From contig NW_005201144.1 of the NCBI RefSeq assembly GCF_000372725.1, forward strand, positions 1 to 64,000: a stretch of 64,000 bases of DNA, in the 5' to 3' direction. The position numbers and the translations under genes are program-made. Below are positions 52,508 through 61,942 of the stretch, piece after piece; the first letter of the stretch is position 1, and each line of letters starts with the position of its first letter. The notes under the pieces were generated by a model. It saw nothing but the letters and a program-made list of their open reading frames with translations, did no database searches and was not told the DNA's origin. This DNA comes from Emiliania huxleyi CCMP1516 (lineage: Eukaryota).

Positions 52508-55500
52508 ATGCTGCTCTCAACCGGCGGACTCGACGGGCTCGCCGCCCTCGCAGCCGCCGTGCAACAGCAGCGCGCACACTACACTGCGCCGCCCGCTGAC
52601 GAGCGACTCGCTGCACTCGACTTGTTGGGCGACCAGCCGCTCGTCGATAAGCGTCCCCTTGAGGACGGCCAGCCGCCGCCCGAGGCCAAGCACCCCCGCG
52701 CTCCCAAGGCCCTCCCGCCGAAGGCCCTCCCGCCGGGATGGACGGTCCAGCGGCGCAAGGCGGTGGCGCGCTCGTACAACGTTTTCCACGGGCCGAATGG
52801 GGAGCGCGCCGTCTCCATCGCCGACGCGTGGCGCAAGGACCAGGGCATTCCTCCGTCACCGCCGGCGCCGCGGCCGCCGCCGCCACCGGCCGTAGCATCC
52901 GGAGCGGGACGGGAGCGGGAGCCTGGCGACGGCGGCGAGCCGCCCCGGAAGCGGCGCTCGGGAGGGCGCGGAGGCACCCGCTCGGGTGGAGGGGTGGTGT
53001 GGGAGGAGTGCACCGAGGTGGGCAAACCGCCGCCGCGCGCAGCCTCCGCCTCCGCCGCCACCTCGGTGCGGGCAGCTCTCTCCGTCAGCGGCGGCGGCGG
53101 CGTGTCGCTCACACTTCGCGTGTGCTGCGCCAGCCCGAAGGCGCTCTGACCCTCCCCCCCCCCCCGCCGCCGCCGCCGCCGCCGCGGCCATCCTCGCCGC
53201 CACCACCTCCTCCACCACCGTCGCCCTCATCGCCCCCACGGCCTCACCGCCCATTCGGCCCTCACCTCACCCCTTCGCCGCTCTCGCCCTCACCGCTCTC
53301 TCCGCCGCCCTCGCCCTCGCCGCCCGCAGGCGGCCGCGGCGGCGGCGAGGAGCAACCGGCAGAGCCGGCAGCTGGCGGCGCTGCAAGACTACCTCCACAA
53401 GGGCCGAGCCGACAAGTGCGCCAACGAGTCCCTCGCCTCCGTCGCTGACCAGATTGCAGAGAAGCGGCGCCCCCCCCCTCAAACCTGCCGCCGCCTCCTC
53501 CTCCCCGCCCCTCCTCCTCCTCCCCCGTCCGCCTCTGCAACCTCGCCAGCGCGCCTCCTCCTCCTCCTCTCCCTCCTCCTCCCATGCGGCCTCCCTTCNN
53601 NNNNNNNNNNNNNNNNNNNNNNNNNNNNNNNNNNNNNNNNNNNNNNNNNNNNNNNNNNNNNNNNNNNNNNNNNNNNNNNNNNNNNNNNNNNNNNNNNNCC
53701 CCCCCCCCCCATCCCCCCCCTCGCCTCCCCAGCAGGCGCGGCGGCACGGCCATCCAGTGGGGGTGCGTCTGCGCGGGAGGCGTGCTACGCGGCGGTGCCG
53801 AGCTGCAGTGCCGCTCGTGCGCCCTCACCTTCCACTCCAAGTGCGAGCGGCTCGACTACACACCCGCGGAGCTCGCGCGCTTCGCCGCCGACAAGACGTT
53901 CCTTTGCTCGTCGTGCCAGCAGCAGGAGCTGCAGCGCGCGGGGTACGACCCGTCGGCCGGCCGCTTCGTCTGGCAGTGCCAGTCGTGCACGCGCTGCTTC
54001 GAGGCGGAGGAGCACCGCACCGCCGAGCGGCACGGCGCTCGCTGTGCTGCAGAGCTGGAGCGCCGCGAGTGGTCCTGCGTCTGCGCCGACCCGAGGGCGC
54101 GCAAGGCCCTCGCGACAGAGTGTGCCGACTGCGGCCGCTGGTTCCACTACGGGTGCAAGGCGCAGTACCGCGACGGCGGCGCGAAGGACCGCTGCGTCGC
54201 GTGCCAGGACGCGGCCGACGACGCCGACGCCGCGGTGGCGGTGGCTAGCTGCTCCAAGACGTGCCAGAGATCTGAGGTAGGAACATAGGAGAGCGGACTG
54301 GGACACGGAGGTGAGCTAGTGCGCGCCGACGTGGCTACTCTCGTGCGCCGGCTAGAGACGGCGAACCGAAGAGGGGACCGCCCCGTGTAGGCCATGGCCG
54401 CCGCGCCGCCGCCGCAGCACCGTCGCGCGACGGCCGCCGCCGCCGCCTCCGCGGTGGCGGTGGCGGTGCGCGGCCGCCAGCCGAGGGACGAGGCGGCGGC
54501 TGGCGGCGGAGGGGCTGGCGGCGGAGGGGCTGGCGGCGGAGGGGCCGGCGGTGCAAGGGGCGGCGGAGGGGGAGGCGGCGGAGGGGGGGGCGGGGCGGGC
54601 GGGTATGGGACGGAGGGGCGCTGCCCCCTCGCCGCGCTCGGGCACCGCGAGGTCGGGACGCTGGCGGACGGGCGGGTGGAGGTGCGGCCGTCCACGCTCG
54701 GCGATCTCCCCATCCCTCCCCATCTCTCCCCGTCTCTCCCCATCTCCCCCCATCTCTCCCCATCTCGGCGCATCTCTCCCCATCTCCCCCCATCTCTCCC
54801 CATCTCTCCCCATCTCTCCCCATCTCTCCCCGGGCCTCCCCGTCCCTCCCGGTGCGTCCCGGTGCGTGCGGATCCGTGCGCGTGGGTGCGCGTGCCTGCG
54901 GGTGCGGGCGTGCACGCGCGGCGAGGCGGCGGGGCTCGGCCTCTTTGCGCGCGAGCGCGTGCAGCCGGGCGAGGTGGTCTCGACGTACCACGGCTCGCTG
55001 CTGTACAAGGAGGAGATGGCGCCCGAGGCGCCCGCCCCTGCCGTCGTCCCCGGACACGTCCACGACGCGTCCACGACGCGGCCGCGACACGTCCAGGACA
55101 CGTCCCATGACACGTCGCCGCAGGCGGACGCCTCCTACATCGTCCGGCTGCCGAACGCGGGCGGCGCGCTCGTCAACGGCAAGCCGTACGCCGACGCCAT
55201 CCGCGCGAACCCCGCCAACCCGTCAGCGGACGGGTGCCACGTGCCGCTGGCCGGCGCAGCCGCGTGGGGCTTCGGCGCGGGCGCGATGGCCAACGACCCT
55301 CGCGACAAGCGGCGCACGAACGCGCTGCTCGCCTTCGTCAAGCCCGCCGCCGTCGGGAAGGCCGTCGCCGACCTCGCCGTCGTGCGGCCGGTGCTTCTCG
55401 CCACGCGGCAGATTGAGCCCGGCGAGGAGGTCTTCTACTCGTACGGCTCGAACAAGCCCTTCGAGCGGCTGCGGCAGGCGCTGCAGGCCGCGCAGCAAAA

Positions 55501-55561
55501 GGAGGCCAAGGGCAAGCAGATAGGCTGCAAGCTGGTGTGGCGTGAGCACGGCGTGATTTGA
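52508..55561 (+). CDS. Chromatin protein with MBD-like, PHD/zinc-finger and SET domains (multi-exon; spans an assembly gap; could be more than one gene)
   Basis: LPPGWTVQRRK...FHGPNGERAVS (MBD-like); two C4HC3-type PHD fingers at about 53755-54205; SET motifs GLGLFARE...GEVVSTYHG...AMAND...ATRQIEPGEEVFYSYG. Confidence 0.7.
53599..53698. other. Assembly gap (100 N)
   Basis: Run of N. Confidence 1.
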
Positions 55562-56408
55562 CCAGAGCGCGCTCTGCCAGCGGTGAACGGGAGGGGCGCG
55601 GCGGACGAGCGGTCTGCCAGCAGCCGCCCCCCACGACGATGGTCAATACGCGATAGCCCGATCGATGAGCTCTAACGTCTTGTACCTATGTGTACGCTGT
55701 GGGAGGGGCGTCGGGTAAACGTACAGTTTCGCATGTGTCGTATGAGTTCGTTATATTCTTCCCTTACAAAACTCTTCGGCCGACTTGCCTCCTTTTCCTT
55801 AGAGACTGAGAGAGAGGATGAGAGGTTGTGAGAGCGCCTCACACCTCAGTGCTCAGAAAGCACAGAATGCCTGCAGAAAGATGTGAAGATTGAAGTCCAC
55901 AATCTCCAAACACCAAAGCTTCGGCCTTCGCCTCGAGGCTTCTCTCGCGTACGTACGATCGTATACTTGTAGCTTAATGCGGCATACGTAGAGCCGATTT
56001 GAGTTGCTCTCGAATGCCGGTCGGAATCGATGTGCATCTTCATCGGCGATCTGTATCTGTATCTTGACCTTGATCTTCGATCGTCGGCTCTAATGGGGAA
56101 CAAGGGGAGAGGGGCTCTCTCGCGCGGACGTGTATGGTGTAACCTCCACGCCTGGCCTCGCGCTTTTCGTCGGCGGCGAGGACAGGTCCCGGCGGGCCGG
56201 CGGCTCGTCCCGGGGGTCTCGCGTGCGTCGAGCGCTCGGAGATCCAGGCACTACGGTCTACGCGCCCCCTCTTCGGCAAAAACACCACACAACAGTGTGT
56301 GGCACACTCCACGACCCCTAAAATCTCCAACCGTGACGGACGGTCCATCACACTAGAGCAAACGCACCCTCTTACACCACCCCAAGAAGCGGCCGCAGCC
56401 ACCCGCAG

Positions 56409-59400
56409 ATGCGCTCATCCTCGACAGAGCCGCCCATCCTGCCGTCAAACAGTGCCGCCAAGCGTGTCACCGCCTCCGTGCCCAGGGGCGGCGCTCCCCG
56501 CCGCTCGCCGTCGCCGCCGCCTCCGTCCGCCTCCTCCTTGGCGAGCGGCTGGCTCGGCGGCGGAGGCTCCGCGCCGCGCGCGGTGCAGAGGAGTTTCGCG
56601 ACAGAGCCAATTGCGGCGGCGGTGGCTGCGGCTGGCGCGTCAGCCAGCGATGGGGGGCGAGAAGCGGGTAGCGTCGCGGCCTCTTCCAGCTCGAGCACGG
56701 CTCGCGCGAGCGCCTCTCTCGTCGCAAACAGCGCGCCGGCCGGAAGCGGCAGCCCGCCGACCACTGCGCCGTCACCGGTCTCAGGCAGAGGTTGCTGCAG
56801 ATAAGGGTGTCAGCAGGGATCGGATCCAGGCCGCCCTGGAAGAGGCACTGGCCCTCCCATTCGGCCCACTCGGAGGCAAAACCGATTATGACAACCATCA
56901 CATTGACCACGTCCGCTCGTGTGCGCAAGCAAACGGCTTCGCGCTCGACCCGCAGATCAAGGCCATGGCGGGGAAGCTCGGCCTCGAGCCTCCAAGGCCG
57001 GCGCCGTGGCTCGCCATGTTTGTGCACCTCGCCGATCTGCTCGACGTGGCGGTTCTCGTGTCCGAGGCGCATGGAGGATTGCCATTGGTGTACTGCAACA
57101 ATGCGGCGGCGCGCCTCACTCGATACTCGGTGTCGGAGATGCTCGGCCGCAGCTGCCGCTTTCTCCAAGGGCCGGACACCGAGGATGAGGCCGTCGGTCG
57201 GCTTAGTGCGTCCCTCCGCGCGGCCGAATCCGCCTCAGTCGAGCTCACAAACTATCGCAAGGACGGCAGCCAATTCAGGAACGCCCTCTTCCTGCAGCCC
57301 GTGCATGACAGCTGTGGGGCGTGCCGCTACGTGATTGGCCTGCAGGCGGACGCCGCCGACAGCCCCTCCGTCCGCCGCGCCGCCACTGTCTTCCGCCTGC
57401 TGCCTACCCGCTTCGCCGCGGAGCTTCAGCCGGCGCCATTGACGGCTCTTGTGCCAGAGGCACAGCTCCACACCCAGTGGAGGAGCTCACTCGCCGCCCT
57501 TTCTCGTCTCGCCCTCTGCGCCGACTGGGGTGCGACCCTGCGCAGCATTGTGCGACAGCCCGTCGCCCTTGAGGCGTTCCACTCGTGGCTCCGGCACAGT
57601 CCCGTGGCCGCGAAGCAGCTAGAGGTTTGCGCTGCGGCGGCACAGCTCGAGGATTTGCCTCCTGATGCGCAGACCGCGGCGGTTGGCGAGATGTGCGAAC
57701 GCCACCTCGGGCTCCGCGGCGGCAGTGCCGAGCAAGCGCTAGCAGCGGTCACGGCCGCGGCGGCGCACGCGGTCTCAGTGCTGCTGCGCTCGGAGGCATT
57801 GCCCAAATTCGTCCTCTCCCCCGCTTTCTTGCCCCTCGCAACGCTGTGGATCGCGGAGGCCGAGGAGCTCACGGCGGGCGACATGCCGCTTGAGGCTCAC
57901 CCGCGCACGGCGCGCGAGGAGGCGGCGCTAAAGCTTCGCAGCAACCATAGCCGCGTGCTGCGAGACGTGTGTAACGACGGGAGAGCCAACATCGACGGCA
58001 AGCCGCTCACCCAGCTCGAGCTCCTCCGCATCAACCCCGAGGACGAGAGCGAATCCGACGCCGCGCTGAAGGAGATCTCCCGCCGGCTGCTCGGCGAGGG
58101 CACCTGCGACCCGTCCTCGCGCAAGGAGAGGGCGGTCTGGGCCGCCGTGGCGAGGTACCTAAGCGCTCGCACTCAGTCCACGGCGGAGGAGAAGCCTGGA
58201 CGCGAGCCCGACATGAGCGCGCCGGCTGCAGCGGCGATGCGCGCGGTCCTGCGGTCGATGGTCACGGCGAACGACTTGGCTGAGGCACGCGAGCTGCTCT
58301 GGCCTGGGTACCACGCGCCGGGCGATGCTGAAGGGTGGGTTTGCGCCTTTGCCCAGGCTGCCTCGCGCCTTCCTTTCAGCCTCGTCCTCACCGACACGTC
58401 GCTGGCGGGCAACCCGATCGTCTTCGCCAATAGCGCCTTCCGCGAGCTGACCGGGTACGAGCGGCACGAGGTGGAGGGGCAAAACTGCCGCATGCTGCAA
58501 GGCCCAGGGACAGAGCGGCTCTCGCTGGCGGTGATGGTGAACGCGCTGCGGCGCGGCGTCGACTGCCACCTTCGGGTGACGAATTACCGCAAGTCTGGGG
58601 AGCGGTTCTCGAACTTGCTCTCTCTGCGGCCTGTGCGCGACGGTAGCTCCGCCTATCGCTATTGCGTTGGCCTTCTGTCCGAGATCGACGCCCAATCTTT
58701 GCAGAACCCGGATGTGCCTGCCACGTCGGCAAAGCTAGCCGCTCTTGCCGATCTCTTTGCACTCCTGCCAAATCGTTTTGGGTCGGATCCGCTCCTCTCG
58801 AGTGGCAAGACGCACGTCGCCGCAGAGATGGTCTGGGAGAGGCAAATTCCGCTACGGGATCGGCTGGCCGACGCGATGCGAGGCGGAAGGCTCGCGATTA
58901 TGGGCCTCCTTGGTCGCGGAGGTTTGAACGACGGGGTAAGCCCGCTGTACGCCACCAGCCACCGGTCGCACCTCGAGCAATGCGCGCGGCCCACAGACAA
59001 GGATGCGGCCAGGACCGATGACGACCGGAGCGATGGAGCGACCACCCGAGCAGTGAGCGAGTCGAGCGGAAGCGGGCAGGGCTCCGCTAGGAGCAGCCCG
59101 AGCGCGTCACCGCGGATGGCACGCCTCCGCCTCCCGGGGCGGCGGCCGAGCCGGAAGTTGGCTCTGCCACCAGCCTGTGGGTCGTCAACTTCTTCAACCG
59201 CGTCGCCCGCCGCGCTCGTGCCGAAGCCGCCCTCCTCGCCTCGATCCCCCTCCTCCCCCGCGCCTGCTTCGCCGCAAGCCCTCGCCACGCCGCCCACGTC
59301 GCCGGCAAGCTGCGGGCCAGACGCGCCCTTTGGCTTTGCCCTGGTGCCAAACTTTACCGTCACATCGCGAGCGCCCGGTCGCCAACACTTTCTTTTCTAA
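56409..59400 (+). CDS. LOV-RGS-LOV blue-light photoreceptor-like protein (5' end uncertain)
   Basis: LOV1 GRSCRFLQGPDT...NYRKDGSQFRN...VIGLQ (about 57079-57351); RGS-like LRSIVRQPVALEAFHSWL...LLRSEALPKFVLSPAF (about 57535-57840); LOV2 GQNCRMLQGPGT...NYRKSGERFSN (about 58375-58689). Confidence 0.85.
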
Positions 59401-59668
59401 CCGTGCCGATGTGGGTGTAAAGCCTTTAAAACCGTTTAGGCTAAAGCCGTACTAGTTTGTGCGCGAGACACACACACAGTCCACACACCCGTGTCCCAGC
59501 ATGAGGGGCGTTGAGGACAGAGGACAAGAGGAGGCGGGCGGGCGGCGGCGTGCTTGGCGAGGGAGCGGCGGCGGCGGAGGCGGCGAGGCGGCGCGAGCGG
59601 CGGCGCGGGGTGGACATCGCGAGAACAAGAAAAACAAAGCCATGTTTGGGCGCCTTTCGCCCTTCTCA

Positions 59669-60772
59669 TCACTGCCCCGGCGCCCACGTCTCGATCTTCT
59701 TCGGCAGCAGCTGGTTCGACTCGTCCTCTCCGTGGCCTAGGCAGGCGTCTTCGCCCTCGCCCCAGGTAAAGACGGCGCTGTCGGCGGTGACAGCGATGCT
59801 GTGGTAGCCTCCCGCCGAGGTAGCGACGACGCGCTGGCCAGCAAAGGCCTCGACCATGTTCGGCAGCAGCTGGTTCTGCTCGTCGCCGTGGCCTAACCGG
59901 CCAAAGCATCCCCAACCCCAGCTCCAGACAGCGCCGTCGGCGGTGAGGGCGAGGCTGTGCGCTCCTCCAGCCGACACGGCGAGGACGCGCCGCCCAGCGA
60001 ACGCCTCGATCTTCTTCGGCAGCAGATCGTTCTGCTGGTCGCCGTGGCCCAGCCGGCCCCAGCCACCGTGGCCCCAGCTCCAGACGGCTCCGTCGGCGGT
60101 GAGGGCGAGGCTGTGCGCTCCTCCAGCCGACACGGCGAGGACGCGCTGCCCAGCCAACGCCTCGATCTTCTTCGGCAGCAGCTGGCGCTGCTCGTCGCCG
60201 TGGCCCAGCCGGCCCCCGCCTCCATAGCCCCAGCTCCAGACAGCTCCGTCGGCGGTGAGGGCGATGCTGTGGTGCAGTCCTGCCGACACGCTCACGGCGC
60301 GCTTGCCACACAGCGGAGAAGGGAGGCGGGTCGGCGTGTTGAGCCGCGTCACGCCCTCACCGTGGCCGAGGAGCTCTTGAGCCGAGCCGCACGACGAGAG
60401 CCGCCCCTCGCCGTCGATGAAGACGCTGTGCCGGTCGCCTGCCGTCGCCCTCGCCGGCGGGTTGGACTTGCACAGCAGCGCCGAATAGCACAGCCACCGC
60501 ACGGCGCAGCCCTCGCCCTCTGGCTGCGCCGGCAGCTGGTAGCCGCGTTCTTGCGCCCACAAGCGGATGGCCTCCACCGCAAGCGAGGCGTGAAAGACGA
60601 GGGAGACGGCCGTGACGCGAGCGATGTCGGCGGGGTCGCAGCGAGAGACGACGCGCACGAGGAGGTCCGTGGGGAGGTCGAGGAGGCGGGCGGGCGGCGG
60701 CGTGCTCGGCGAGGTAGCGGCGGTGGCGGAGGAGGCGAGGCGGCGCGAGCGGCGGCGCGGCGGGGTGGACAT
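59669..60772 (-). CDS. F-box-like plus RCC1-repeat protein
   Basis: LLDLPTDLLVRVVSRCDPADIARV (F-box-like); repeats VSAGGAHSLALTADGAVWSWGxGxxGRLGHGD. Confidence 0.88.
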   Translation of the reverse strand: MSTPPRRRSRRLASSATAATSPSTPPPARLLDLPTDLLVRVVSRCDPADIARVTAVSLVFHASLAVEAIRLWAQERGYQLPAQPEGEGCAVRWLCYSALLCKSNPPARATAGDRHSVFIDGEGRLSSCGSAQELLGHGEGVTRLNTPTRLPSPLCGKRAVSVSAGLHHSIALTADGAVWSWGYGGGGRLGHGDEQRQLLPKKIEALAGQRVLAVSAGGAHSLALTADGAVWSWGHGGWGRLGHGDQQNDLLPKKIEAFAGRRVLAVSAGGAHSLALTADGAVWSWGWGCFGRLGHGDEQNQLLPNMVEAFAGQRVVATSAGGYHSIAVTADSAVFTWGEGEDACLGHGEDESNQLLPKKIETWAPGQ

Positions 60773-61942
60773 CGCGAGAAAAAGAACTGTCGGCGCGATG
60801 GCCGCGGCGTACGGCTTAGGTGAGCAATTCCTCGCTGCGGCGCAGGACGAGGGCACATTCGGCGAGTGGCTCGACGAGCTACCCTTTGAGGTGGCTGCGG
60901 CGACCGCCCGGCTGCTCAAGCACCACGCGCGCTCCGGCGCGTGGGTCGAGCTCTCGCCCGGCAACCCCCAGGCCCCGCGCGCTGGCCGCGACCGCGACCG
61001 CTCGAGCCCGAACTGCCCGTCAGACATGTCGGAATTGTCGGAGAATAGCGACTAGCACACCTCTGTCGAGTCCCAGAAACCCGAGGAGTCACACAGTCCA
61101 CCTGTGTGATGCACGCCCTGCGAGCGGGGCGGGGTGCGCACTGTCCCTCTGTGTTCGTGTGCGTCGCCCATCTCTCCCTGGAGATGACTGCTCTATTTAT
61201 TTATTTATTTATGCCGTCCTCCCGTCTCTCGGGGCCGTTTTCTTTCTTTCTTTGTTTTAAAACGACGGATCGACAGGGCCGAGATGCGCCAGAGCCAAGT
61301 CAACCTCGCACTCTCGTCGCCAGGGGCTGGGCGCACATAGTCCTACCTTTCTACCTACCTACCTACCTGTTGTGCGAGAAAAAGAATTTAAAACAACAAC
61401 TCTCGCTCACAGCAGACAGGCTCGACACAGGTGCGAAAAAGAATCAACGAAGAGCCGAAACTTGGTGCTGCTCCGGAAAGTGAGAAACGCCCGGCAAACC
61501 TCCCATACGCGTGTTTGGTCGCTCCTTTCCTCGGGCTGTTCCACCTCCTTCCAACCTAGGCGGGGCGAGGGGGCGCGCGGGCGCGGGGTGCGGTACGGTG
61601 TGGGTGTGTACGTGTGATGTGACTGCAGGAAGTGACCATCCGTTATTAACAAGGAAGGCGCTCTCAAATAAGAATTTCCAGGCGATTTTTTCGAGGAAAC
61701 TCTGTGGGTTCTCGTGGCATGGGGCCCGGGCGGCCGTTGCTTTTCTTTTTTTAAGAAATTGGAAAGAAATTGGACGGACGCTCGCGATTCGCCCTCGGCC
61801 GCCTCACCCCCGCGCCACCCCCTCCGCTGCCTTGCCTACCCCACAACCCCCGATTTGGACGCCCGAGGGGCAGGAAGCCGAATTGGGTGAGAACGGAGTT
61901 CTCTGGTAAGCTCAGCTGTGAACTTCCCACATCCCAGTGAGC

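What the first reader, a model, noticed from the sequence alone, without database searches (positions are those of the whole stretch)
57000..58780. LOV-RGS-LOV protein: putative light-gated G-protein regulator with asymmetric LOV domains
Seen: two LOV domains, both keeping the photoactive Cys. LOV1 has GRSCRFLQ (N to S) and the signalling Gln (GLQ). LOV2 has GQNCRMLQ but Leu at the Gln position (GLL). An RGS-like helical region lies between them. Both LOVs are preceded by a W..F helix and followed by F.LLP.RF, indicating module duplication. Known: RGS-LOV fusions exist in fungi (BcLOV4 type) and stramenopiles (helmchrome). Inference: this arrangement may be a distinct haptophyte photoreceptor coupling blue light to G-alpha signalling.
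Basis: partly seen in the sequence, partly recalled or inferred. Interest (0 to 1): 0.75.

Follow-up and report, generated by a model that had tools for sequence, protein, structure and literature searches.

The report
Algal light sensor with phycoerythrin domain
This is the cut-off rear part of an already catalogued algal blue-light receptor gene, but it carries an overlooked domain that resembles the red antenna protein phycoerythrin, keeps most residues of one pigment pocket, and recurs beside three unrelated kinds of light sensor, so it likely holds an extra pigment.

Summary
The two LOV domains and their residues are as described, and the middle region is RGS-like by profile and predicted fold. 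The arrangement is not new: the gene is listed as 'LOV-Helmchrome-like' (clade C.6.2) in Coesel et al. 2021. LOV-RGS-LOV is also only a remnant. Intact alleles encode 1458 aa, (LOV-RGS-LOV)x2. The window joins codon 589 to unrelated DNA at 56782 and lacks the head-to-head flagellar gene CFAP54 found in intact locus L001. The RGS-like domain lacks the segment and residues recalled as needed for GAP activity, so G-alpha shut-off is doubtful. Profile and fold place it with phycoerythrin alpha. Five of six residues of the outer bilin pocket are among the 8 most conserved of 125 columns (303 domains); both attachment cysteines are gone. The family is large (693 clusters) and often tandem. In 13 of 139 scanned members another domain is recognisable: LOV (10), microbial rhodopsin (2), BLUF (1). 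Likely a non-covalent pigment-binding accessory module (flavin or bilin); untested. I found no description of it in the open-access library.

The parts
56409..56804 (+). 5' part of an unrelated Ser/Pro/Ala-rich ORF; in three runs its sequence continues past 56782 into DNA that is not in the window; in the window it stops at TAA 56802-56804
   Evidence: absent from intact locus L001
56782..56783 (.). Breakpoint (deletion/rearrangement or mis-join; one shared base). Removes codons 1-588 of the receptor gene and the divergent CFAP54 gene seen in L001
   Evidence: L001 matches the window only from L001:8888 = window 56782; contigs of X1, X2, X3 break here and none bridges it
56782..59400 (+). Remnant of the receptor gene = codons 589-1458 of the intact allele; no intron; in-frame ATGs at 56650 (left of the break), 56965, 57016
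   Evidence: 3 synonymous, 4 non-synonymous differences and one 2-codon indel against L001
57007..57414 (+). LOV type a (third LOV of the intact protein): core GRSCRFLQ 57145-57168, Cys and Gln (57343-57345) kept, Asn to Ser in the core
57466..57852 (+). RGS-like helical domain, about 15 residues shorter than RGS10 in the segment after helix 5
57898..58266 (+). Phycoerythrin-alpha-like (globin-fold) domain 'X', 123 aa, no Pfam family; keeps K12, N16, D23, R91, R102, D105; no Cys at either bilin attachment position
58291..58350 (+). Family-conserved linker (LLW..Y..P.D..GW) that follows the RGS-like domain directly in relatives; X is inserted just before it
58366..58779 (+). LOV type b (fourth LOV): core GQNCRMLQ 58477-58500, Cys kept, Leu (58675-58677) at the Gln position
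58780..59400 (+). C-terminal tail, Ser/Pro-rich, no Pfam match; X1 cover ends at 59431

Best explanation
The window holds the 3' 60% of a haptophyte helmchrome-like gene whose intact alleles encode (LOV-RGS-like-LOV)x2 with a phycoerythrin-alpha-like domain inserted in the second unit; the protein is likely a blue-light receptor of the swimming cell stage, and the inserted domain likely binds an extra pigment without a covalent link. Steps. (1) Shown: architecture, truncation, LOV residues. (2) Inferred from LOV chemistry (about 0.85): the three LOVs with Cys form flavin adducts in blue light; the third has Cys and Gln, the first and fourth lack Gln and would signal more weakly, the second has Met for Cys and would not form the adduct. 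(3) Inferred (about 0.65): the RGS-like bundle acts as a light-released contact or inhibitory module, as reported for BcLOV4, not as a classical GAP. (4) Well supported (about 0.85): domain X descends from phycoerythrin alpha without its N-terminal 31 residues. (5) Inferred (about 0.6): X holds a pigment in the outer (Cys139-type) pocket and acts as antenna, screen or chromophore store for the neighbouring sensor; flavin about 0.35, free bilin about 0.25. (6) Inferred (about 0.6): the gene works at the flagellum; the window copy is a decaying or mis-assembled remnant that is probably not expressed as an intact receptor.
For: Intact alleles P0130, P0193, P0198, P0206 and L001. Same gene listed as LOV-Helmchrome-like, clade C.6.2 (PMC8017926 Dataset S3C rows 739 and 741, first 400 characters seen, compared by eye). 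X to phycoerythrin alpha: profile E 0.0015, 14 of 16 PDB hits; NCBIfam CpeA is the family matched by most members, 7 of 73, best E 0.0017; model pLDDT 96.1; all 43 printed Foldseek rows are phycobiliproteins, best 1b8d_A prob 1.00, TMq 0.63; VIA best 1b8d_A Z 11.3, rmsd 2.2, 97 aligned, model 2-123 to chain 33-161. The outer pocket of phycoerythrin alpha is K43, N47, E54, R137, R142, D143 (PMC5783998 passages); matching X columns in 303 non-redundant domains collected without motif filter: K12 204, N16 294, D23 297, R91 299, R102 294, D105 298, five of them ranked 2-8 of 125 (hypergeometric 6.5e-6 for 5 of 6 in the top 10), while columns matching the inner pocket rank 95-115. Partners of X: LOV 10, rhodopsin 2, BLUF 1 of 139 scanned, LOV plus kinase in P0141. 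Second VIA hit is the C-terminal region of GST iota, entry title 'in complex with FMN' (9r0w_A 287-375, Z 9.6, rmsd 2.0, 89 aligned); that region was earlier called phycoerythrin-alpha-like (PMC4138524 passage). Flagellar link: CFAP54_N gene (E 1.6e-23) starts 89 bp away on the other strand in L001; helmchrome is flagellar in brown algae; a haploid-specific phototropin PAS homolog is lost with flagellar genes in E. huxleyi (PMC4438323 passage).
Against: No ligand binding, photocycle, localisation or G-alpha contact was measured. No Foldseek match reaches E<=0.001 for X or for RGS, and Z 11.3 is below the tool's caution line of about 13 for helical bundles. The motifs that detect the homology are the same ones counted as conserved pocket residues, so the test is partly circular. 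R102 is not in strict register with R142 (P104 is; only short variants such as P0004 read PRDMS). X also has conserved residues with no phycoerythrin role assigned (T38, Q39, R44, N26). Whether FMN in 9r0w binds the matching domain I could not see. The two rhodopsin matches cover only 52 and 58 of 224 profile positions and come from metagenome assemblies. 124 of 139 scanned X proteins have no other Pfam domain and 2 have borderline non-sensor hits (DUF2114, BssS). Coesel et al. found haptophyte helmchrome-like transcripts peak at dawn, unlike helmchrome, and suggest a divergent role. Several family members (P0132, P0133, P0135, P0136) have no X, so it is dispensable. That the lost 'phototropin PAS homolog' is this gene was not tested.
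Confidence: 0.55

Rival explanations
1. One reading: the LOVs gate a working RGS domain that is a GAP for G-alpha.
For: RGS homology by profile and fold; relatives P0133 and P0135 pass Pfam's RGS cut-off; the RGS domain of fungal MoRGS5 interacts with a G-alpha in two-hybrid assays (PMC6099885 passage); the helix-8 acidic and basic positions are conservatively kept (E, K).
Against: Profile positions 89-98 face RGS10 residues 82-106, i.e. about 15 residues are missing where the catalytic Asn loop lies (Asn128 of RGS4, recalled); the EEN and FW positions align to 'edaa' and 'le' in the profile and to Ala/Ala in the window copy. Top VIA matches are SNX25 RGS domains, tied within about 1 Z with true GAPs. 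No haptophyte G-alpha was available to test.
Confidence: 0.2
2. X is a pigment-free structural repeat: a globin-fold scaffold that oligomerises or anchors photoreceptors at a membrane or flagellar structure.
For: Tandem arrays of up to 11 copies; 10 of 204 X proteins end in a CaaX-like motif against 0 of 182 other proteins held, most of which are bacterial; both bilin cysteines are lost (0 of 303 at the Cys139 column, 7 of 303 at the Cys82 column).
Against: The most conserved residues are polar and map to a known ligand pocket rather than to a hydrophobic interface.
Confidence: 0.3
3. X is only convergently similar to phycoerythrin alpha (a common five-helix bundle with chance motif matches).
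For: Borderline statistics: best profile E 0.0015, best Foldseek E 5.6e-3; no single member hits Pfam's phycobiliprotein family at E<=1 among the 25 families shown; colicin and globin bundles reach Z 6-7.
Against: Two separate motifs match in order and at the offsets given by the structural alignment ends (+31 and +38); a natural short variant reads R-I-A-V-P-R-D-M-S against R-L-C-A-P-R-D-M-S of 3mwn_A; alpha-phycoerythrin ranks first in sequence, Foldseek, VIA and NCBIfam searches.
Confidence: 0.12
4. The window copy is a functional, naturally shortened LOV-RGS-X-LOV receptor started at ATG 56650 or 56965.
For: The frame is open from 56143 to 59400 and differs little from L001; single-unit relatives exist (P0004, P0005).
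Against: No contig of the five runs laid bridges 56782; an out-of-frame ATG at 56409 lies upstream; the native promoter region is missing.
Confidence: 0.12

Closest known systems
Haptophyte 'LOV-Helmchrome-like' proteins, clade C.6.2 (Coesel et al. 2021, PMC8017926)
   Same: This gene is in their reference table (S3C rows 739, 741); PAS-RGS-PAS annotation for a Chrysochromulina member (S7B row 65); same linker motifs.
   Different: Main text speaks of LOV coupled to a single RGS; the intact gene has two RGS-like and four LOV domains. Domain X is not annotated there: the 8 Globin_like rows seen in S6A are all dinoflagellate proteins (file cut when stored).
Helmchrome of stramenopiles (as described in PMC8017926 and PMC5795050; original paper not seen)
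   Same: Tandem RGS and paired LOV modules; same clade in Coesel's tree; possible flagellar link.
   Different: Order starts with a LOV (LOVa-RGS-LOVb repeated); carries X; localisation unknown; transcripts of the haptophyte group peak at dawn.
BcLOV4 / fungal RGS-LOV-DUF (PMC6099885)
   Same: RGS-homology domain fused to LOV; RGS not shown to be a light-gated GAP.
   Different: One LOV and a C-terminal DUF with a lipid-binding helix; none of that was found here, and BcLOV4 was not in my tree.
Phycoerythrin alpha subunit (CpeA; 1b8d_A, 3mwn_A)
   Same: Globin-like fold over residues 33-161; outer-pocket residues K43, N47, E54, R137, D143 and probably R142.
   Different: No Cys82 or Cys139 counterpart, inner pocket not conserved, first 31 residues absent, 8-residue insertion before the DMS motif, fused or tandem in large proteins of an alga group without phycobilisomes (general knowledge).
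C-terminal domain of glutathione transferase iota (9r0w; PMC4138524)
   Same: A phycoerythrin-alpha-like domain used outside phycobilisomes; Z 9.6, 24% identity over 89 residues; entry holds FMN.
   Different: Fused to an enzyme, single copy, shorter; not found by the X sequence profile at E<=10; FMN site not seen by me.

Membership tests
LOV photoreceptor domain | PAS fold with GXNCRFLQ-type core and adduct-forming Cys | tested here: met
   PAS_9 E 4.7e-31; cores with Cys in both window LOVs; PDB LOV matches E 1e-22 to 1e-23
LOV photoreceptor domain | Active-site Gln | tested here: inconclusive
   Present in LOV a, Leu in LOV b; reported as dispensable (abstract)
LOV photoreceptor domain | Flavin binding and photocycle | not testable with these tools
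   needs spectroscopy
RGS-homology domain | Sequence and fold homology to RGS boxes | tested here: met
   Pfam RGS itself not hit by the window protein
Classical RGS GAP | Switch-contact residues (EEN motif, Asn in the helix 5-6 loop; residue roles recalled, the papers were not held) | tested here: not met
   Loop about 15 residues shorter, EEN and FW not kept
Classical RGS GAP | GAP activity on G-alpha | not testable with these tools
   no G-alpha sequence or assay
Helmchrome-like clade C.6.2 | RGS plus LOV modules, placement in the clade | tested here: met
   near-identical sequence listed in the clade; architecture
Helmchrome (strict) | Orthology with stramenopile helmchrome | not tested
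   no stramenopile helmchrome or BcLOV4 in the tree
Helmchrome (strict) | Flagellar localisation | not testable with these tools
   only indirect: CFAP54 neighbour
Phycobiliprotein (phycoerythrin alpha) | Globin-like phycobiliprotein fold | tested here: met
   (predicted model; scores moderate)
Phycobiliprotein (phycoerythrin alpha) | Bilin attachment Cys82 with KCxRD motif | tested here: not met
   Cys in 7 of 303 at that column; columns rank 95-115 of 125
Phycobiliprotein (phycoerythrin alpha) | Bilin attachment Cys139 | tested here: not met
   column 93 is Q 273, H 22, Cys 0 of 303; HMMER's low-confidence alternative column 99 has Cys in 74 of 303 but Lys in the window copy
Phycobiliprotein (phycoerythrin alpha) | Non-covalent residues of the outer pocket | tested here: met
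   R142 assignment not in strict register
Phycobiliprotein (phycoerythrin alpha) | N-terminal segment used for alpha-beta assembly (role recalled) | tested here: not met
   alignments start at residue 32-34

The most novel reading that the evidence does not exclude
Haptophytes kept phycoerythrin alpha after losing phycobilisomes and turned its outer bilin pocket into a mobile, non-covalent pigment module that is fused to LOV, BLUF and rhodopsin sensors and built into membrane-anchored tandem arrays: an undescribed antenna or screening system for algal photoreception, which with a bilin ligand would extend a blue-light LOV receptor into green light.
Probability: 0.3. Interest if true: 0.9.

Novelty: new variant of a known kind. 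Interest (0 to 1): 0.68.

Why it matters
The RGS-LOV part is catalogued and of modest interest. The inserted domain is the result: a large unannotated family (693 clusters at 50% identity) that appears to be a repurposed light-harvesting protein in algae that have no phycobilisomes, and whose recognisable partners are light sensors. It gives a small, soluble, directly testable target (123 aa, named pocket residues) for how haptophytes sense light, and a possible new non-covalent flavin or bilin binder. The link to CFAP54 and the truncation also tie this receptor to the loss of the swimming stage in coccolithophores.

Tried and rejected
Pfam at E<=1 gave no RGS for the window protein or for 17 first homologues at E<=0.5; a single-sequence PDB search of the middle region gave 2 chance hits. 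An intron at 56782 was considered and rejected: the missing DNA is coding in the genomic locus L001 and the left side continues into other DNA. Two motifs from the missing pieces are not elsewhere in the window, nor are the two L001 neighbour genes. X was not found in prokaryote genomes (0 of 29 pattern matches confirmed) or viral contigs (0 of 10); these scans use one short pattern and are weak for distant relatives. Viral fold library: no match at E<=0.001. Conservation in alignment A2 was inflated by my motif filter, so it was recounted on an unfiltered set (415 domains, 328 near full length, 303 after removing those at 80% identity or more); one search was a failed first run. No genome was held, so G-alpha, bilin reductase and paralog searches in the organism were not possible. 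The protein atlas did not complete and the wide fold search of the RGS model did not run. No paper on the GST iota-FMN structure was found. Two RGS structure papers were not held. Runs with small shares were not used. No complex prediction was sent. Earlier scan notes held nothing on this gene or on X.
Full report
1. Observation. One frame is open from 56143 to 59400 on the + strand. The Leu of the second LOV is in the Gln column: the best solved match, 7pgz, has the same Leu, and an alignment of 49 LOV domains from 21 of 23 proteins given agrees. Pfam finds nothing between the LOVs at E<=1.

2. The window copy is a remnant. A search among longer proteins found P0130 (1387 aa, 99% identical), whose cluster holds three 1458-aa members. 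They have four LOV cores (GRNCRFLQ, GRSMRFLQ, GRSCRFLQ, GQNCRMLQ) and two RGS-like domains; the window supplies only residues 589-1458. Locus L001 carries the whole intronless ORF, identical to P0193, and matches the window only from L001:8888 = window 56782. Contigs of runs X1, X2 and X3 (two studies; RNA by the tool's guess) end at 56782 from the left and go on into other DNA; one X1 contig enters from the right with 368 other letters; none of the five runs laid bridges the point. So an unrelated ORF (ATG 56409) is joined to the middle of the receptor gene. Whether this is a real deletion or an assembly error I could not tell. In L001 a CFAP54_N gene (E 1.6e-23) starts 89 bp upstream on the other strand and an EF-hand gene follows; neither is in the window. 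Von Dassow et al. (PMC4438323, passages seen) report erosion of haploid and flagellar genes in E. huxleyi lineages, among them a phototropin PAS homolog; that this is the same gene is my inference.

3. It is already catalogued. Coesel et al. 2021 (PMC8017926; main-text passages and supplement rows seen, cells cut at 400 characters) report helmchrome-like LOV-RGS sequences in Pavlovophyceae and Prymnesiophyceae. Dataset S7B lists a PAS-RGS-PAS member, and S3C rows 739 (labelled Emiliania huxleyi) and 741 (labelled Isochrysis sp., 1475 aa, motif GQNCRMLQG) read, by eye, as the N-terminal part of P0193. Named cluster members elsewhere in the family are Diacronema lutheri and, for X-repeat proteins, Chrysochromulina tobinii and C. 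parva.

4. LOV asymmetry. The tree splits pre-RGS (type a) from post-RGS (type b) LOVs at 98/92, with a few long-branch exceptions; 16 rows were in no group. The window's first LOV is type a, its second falls with type b. The repeated unit is thus LOVa-RGS-LOVb. Type a has Leu at the Gln position in 13 of 17, type b has Gln in 12 of 16; this protein has the reverse in its second unit. In the intact allele only the third LOV has both Cys and Gln. Dietler et al. (PMC9098866, abstract only) find the Gln dispensable, so Leu does not mean a dead sensor.

5. RGS. A profile of 8 family domains returns RGS or axin chains in 34 of 36 PDB hits, best E 2.5e-5. The model (18-row alignment, pLDDT 92.8) returns RGS-homology domains in all 41 Foldseek rows printed, best E 0.044, and VIA Z 10.3 for SNX25 and 9.1 for RGS16 (a second look at Foldseek's hits). 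Homology is therefore sound. The GAP surface is not: 10 profile positions face 25 residues of RGS10 after helix 5, and the EEN and FW motifs are not kept. The roles of those residues are recalled, not read here. In BcLOV4 the RGS domain inhibits membrane binding in the dark (PMC6099885, passages); a similar non-catalytic role is my preferred reading.

6. The missed domain. Between the RGS-like domain and the conserved linker lies a 123-aa insert, X. It sits at other places in relatives (before the first LOV, after LOV b, in pairs) and is absent from some, so it is mobile. It forms tandem proteins of up to 11 stretches; 693 cluster representatives match at E<=0.001 and 549 at 1e-10, of which the best 150 were listed. 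No Pfam family is matched by more than 3 of 73 members. A 73-row profile hits phycoerythrin alpha chains in 14 of 16 PDB matches, best E 0.0015, through an N-terminal and a C-terminal motif; NCBIfam CpeA is the family most members match (7 of 73). The model (pLDDT 96.1) gives phycobiliproteins in all 43 Foldseek rows printed and 1b8d_A first among 48161 chains (Z 11.3, rmsd 2.2, 97 aligned). Each score alone is moderate; together they agree on one subunit and on one register (+31 at the start, +38 at the end).

7. What X keeps. The outer bilin of phycoerythrin alpha is held by K43, N47, E54, R137, R142, D143 and Cys139; the inner one by K81, C82, R84, D85 (PMC5783998, passages). In 303 non-redundant X domains from 148 proteins, gathered without motif filter, the matching columns are N16 294, D23 297, R91 299, R102 294, D105 298 and K12 204; the five first rank 2-8 of 125 columns. 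The inner-pocket columns rank 95-115. The Cys139 column is Gln or His, never Cys; a loop position six residues on has Cys in 74 of 303 but Lys in the window copy. The window copy has all six outer-pocket residues. Caveats: R102 is two residues off the strict register, and these motifs also drive the homology signal.

8. Company X keeps. Of 139 newly listed representatives scanned at E<=1e-5, 10 carry LOV, 2 a partial microbial rhodopsin match, 1 BLUF, 2 borderline other hits and 124 nothing else; the list favours multi-repeat proteins. P0141 is X3-LOV-kinase. Ten of 204 X proteins end in a CaaX-like motif. The second VIA hit is the C-terminal part of GST iota solved with FMN, a region earlier called phycoerythrin-alpha-like (PMC4138524, passages). 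I saw only the entry title, not where FMN binds.

9. Mechanism. Most likely: blue light forms flavin adducts in the Cys-bearing LOVs, which rearrange the RGS-like bundles as contact modules at or near the flagellum; X holds an extra pigment non-covalently and feeds, shades or supplies the LOVs. Architecture and residues are shown; all function is inferred. Rivals: true light-gated GAP (0.2), pigment-free scaffold (0.3), chance likeness to phycoerythrin (0.12), functional short form in the window (0.12); these are not mutually exclusive.

10. Novelty. The receptor class and this gene are known. For X in haptophyte photoreceptors I found no description in ten searches of the open-access library (listings only, except papers named above), in PMC13737086 (term search), PMC12558739 (term search) or the part of Coesel's domain table that is held (file cut). 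Subscription papers, the original helmchrome paper, the GST iota structure paper and preprint supplements were not seen and may bear on this. Verdict: new variant of a known kind; interest 0.68, carried by domain X rather than by the LOV-RGS-LOV arrangement.

Noticed in passing
L001:4230-7049 (-) and L001:1-4170 (-): CFAP54_N gene head-to-head with the receptor (89 bp between start codons), followed by a long EF-hand ORF; both absent from the window.
   Followed up: partly
proteins P0323, P0325, P0335: Domain X fused to a partial microbial rhodopsin (two proteins) and to a complete BLUF domain (one protein).
   Followed up: partly
protein P0141: Three X domains, LOV and a Ser/Thr kinase: a phototropin-like layout with X repeats.
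   Followed up: no
proteins P0014, P0016, P0254, P0255, P0268, P0272, P0287, P0304, P0312, P0346, P0248: X-only tandem proteins with C-terminal CaaX-like ends (10) or an N-terminal Cys-Cys (P0248, 11 stretches): possible lipid-anchored arrays.
   Followed up: partly
protein P0216 (Diacronema lutheri): 5075-aa protein with at least 11 LOV cores and 6-7 RGS-like domains, no X.
   Followed up: no
proteins P0013, P0138, P0006: A second subfamily: X repeats followed by LOVb-LOVa and a half RGS-like domain.
   Followed up: no
window 59669-61051 (-): F-box-like plus RCC1-repeat ORF of a very high-copy family (hundreds of contigs lay on it); L001 has a version about 1.3 kb shorter.
   Followed up: no
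window 53449-55561 (+): PHD-finger ORF and SET-domain ORF around a 100-N gap (53599-53698) and a purine-rich tandem repeat; a joint 55025-55122 in three runs.
   Followed up: no
window 56307-56782 (+): 5' end of an unidentified transcribed-looking gene whose rest is missing from the window.
   Followed up: partly
PDB 9r0w_A 287-375: GST iota C-terminal region is the second-best structural match to X; entry contains FMN.
   Followed up: partly
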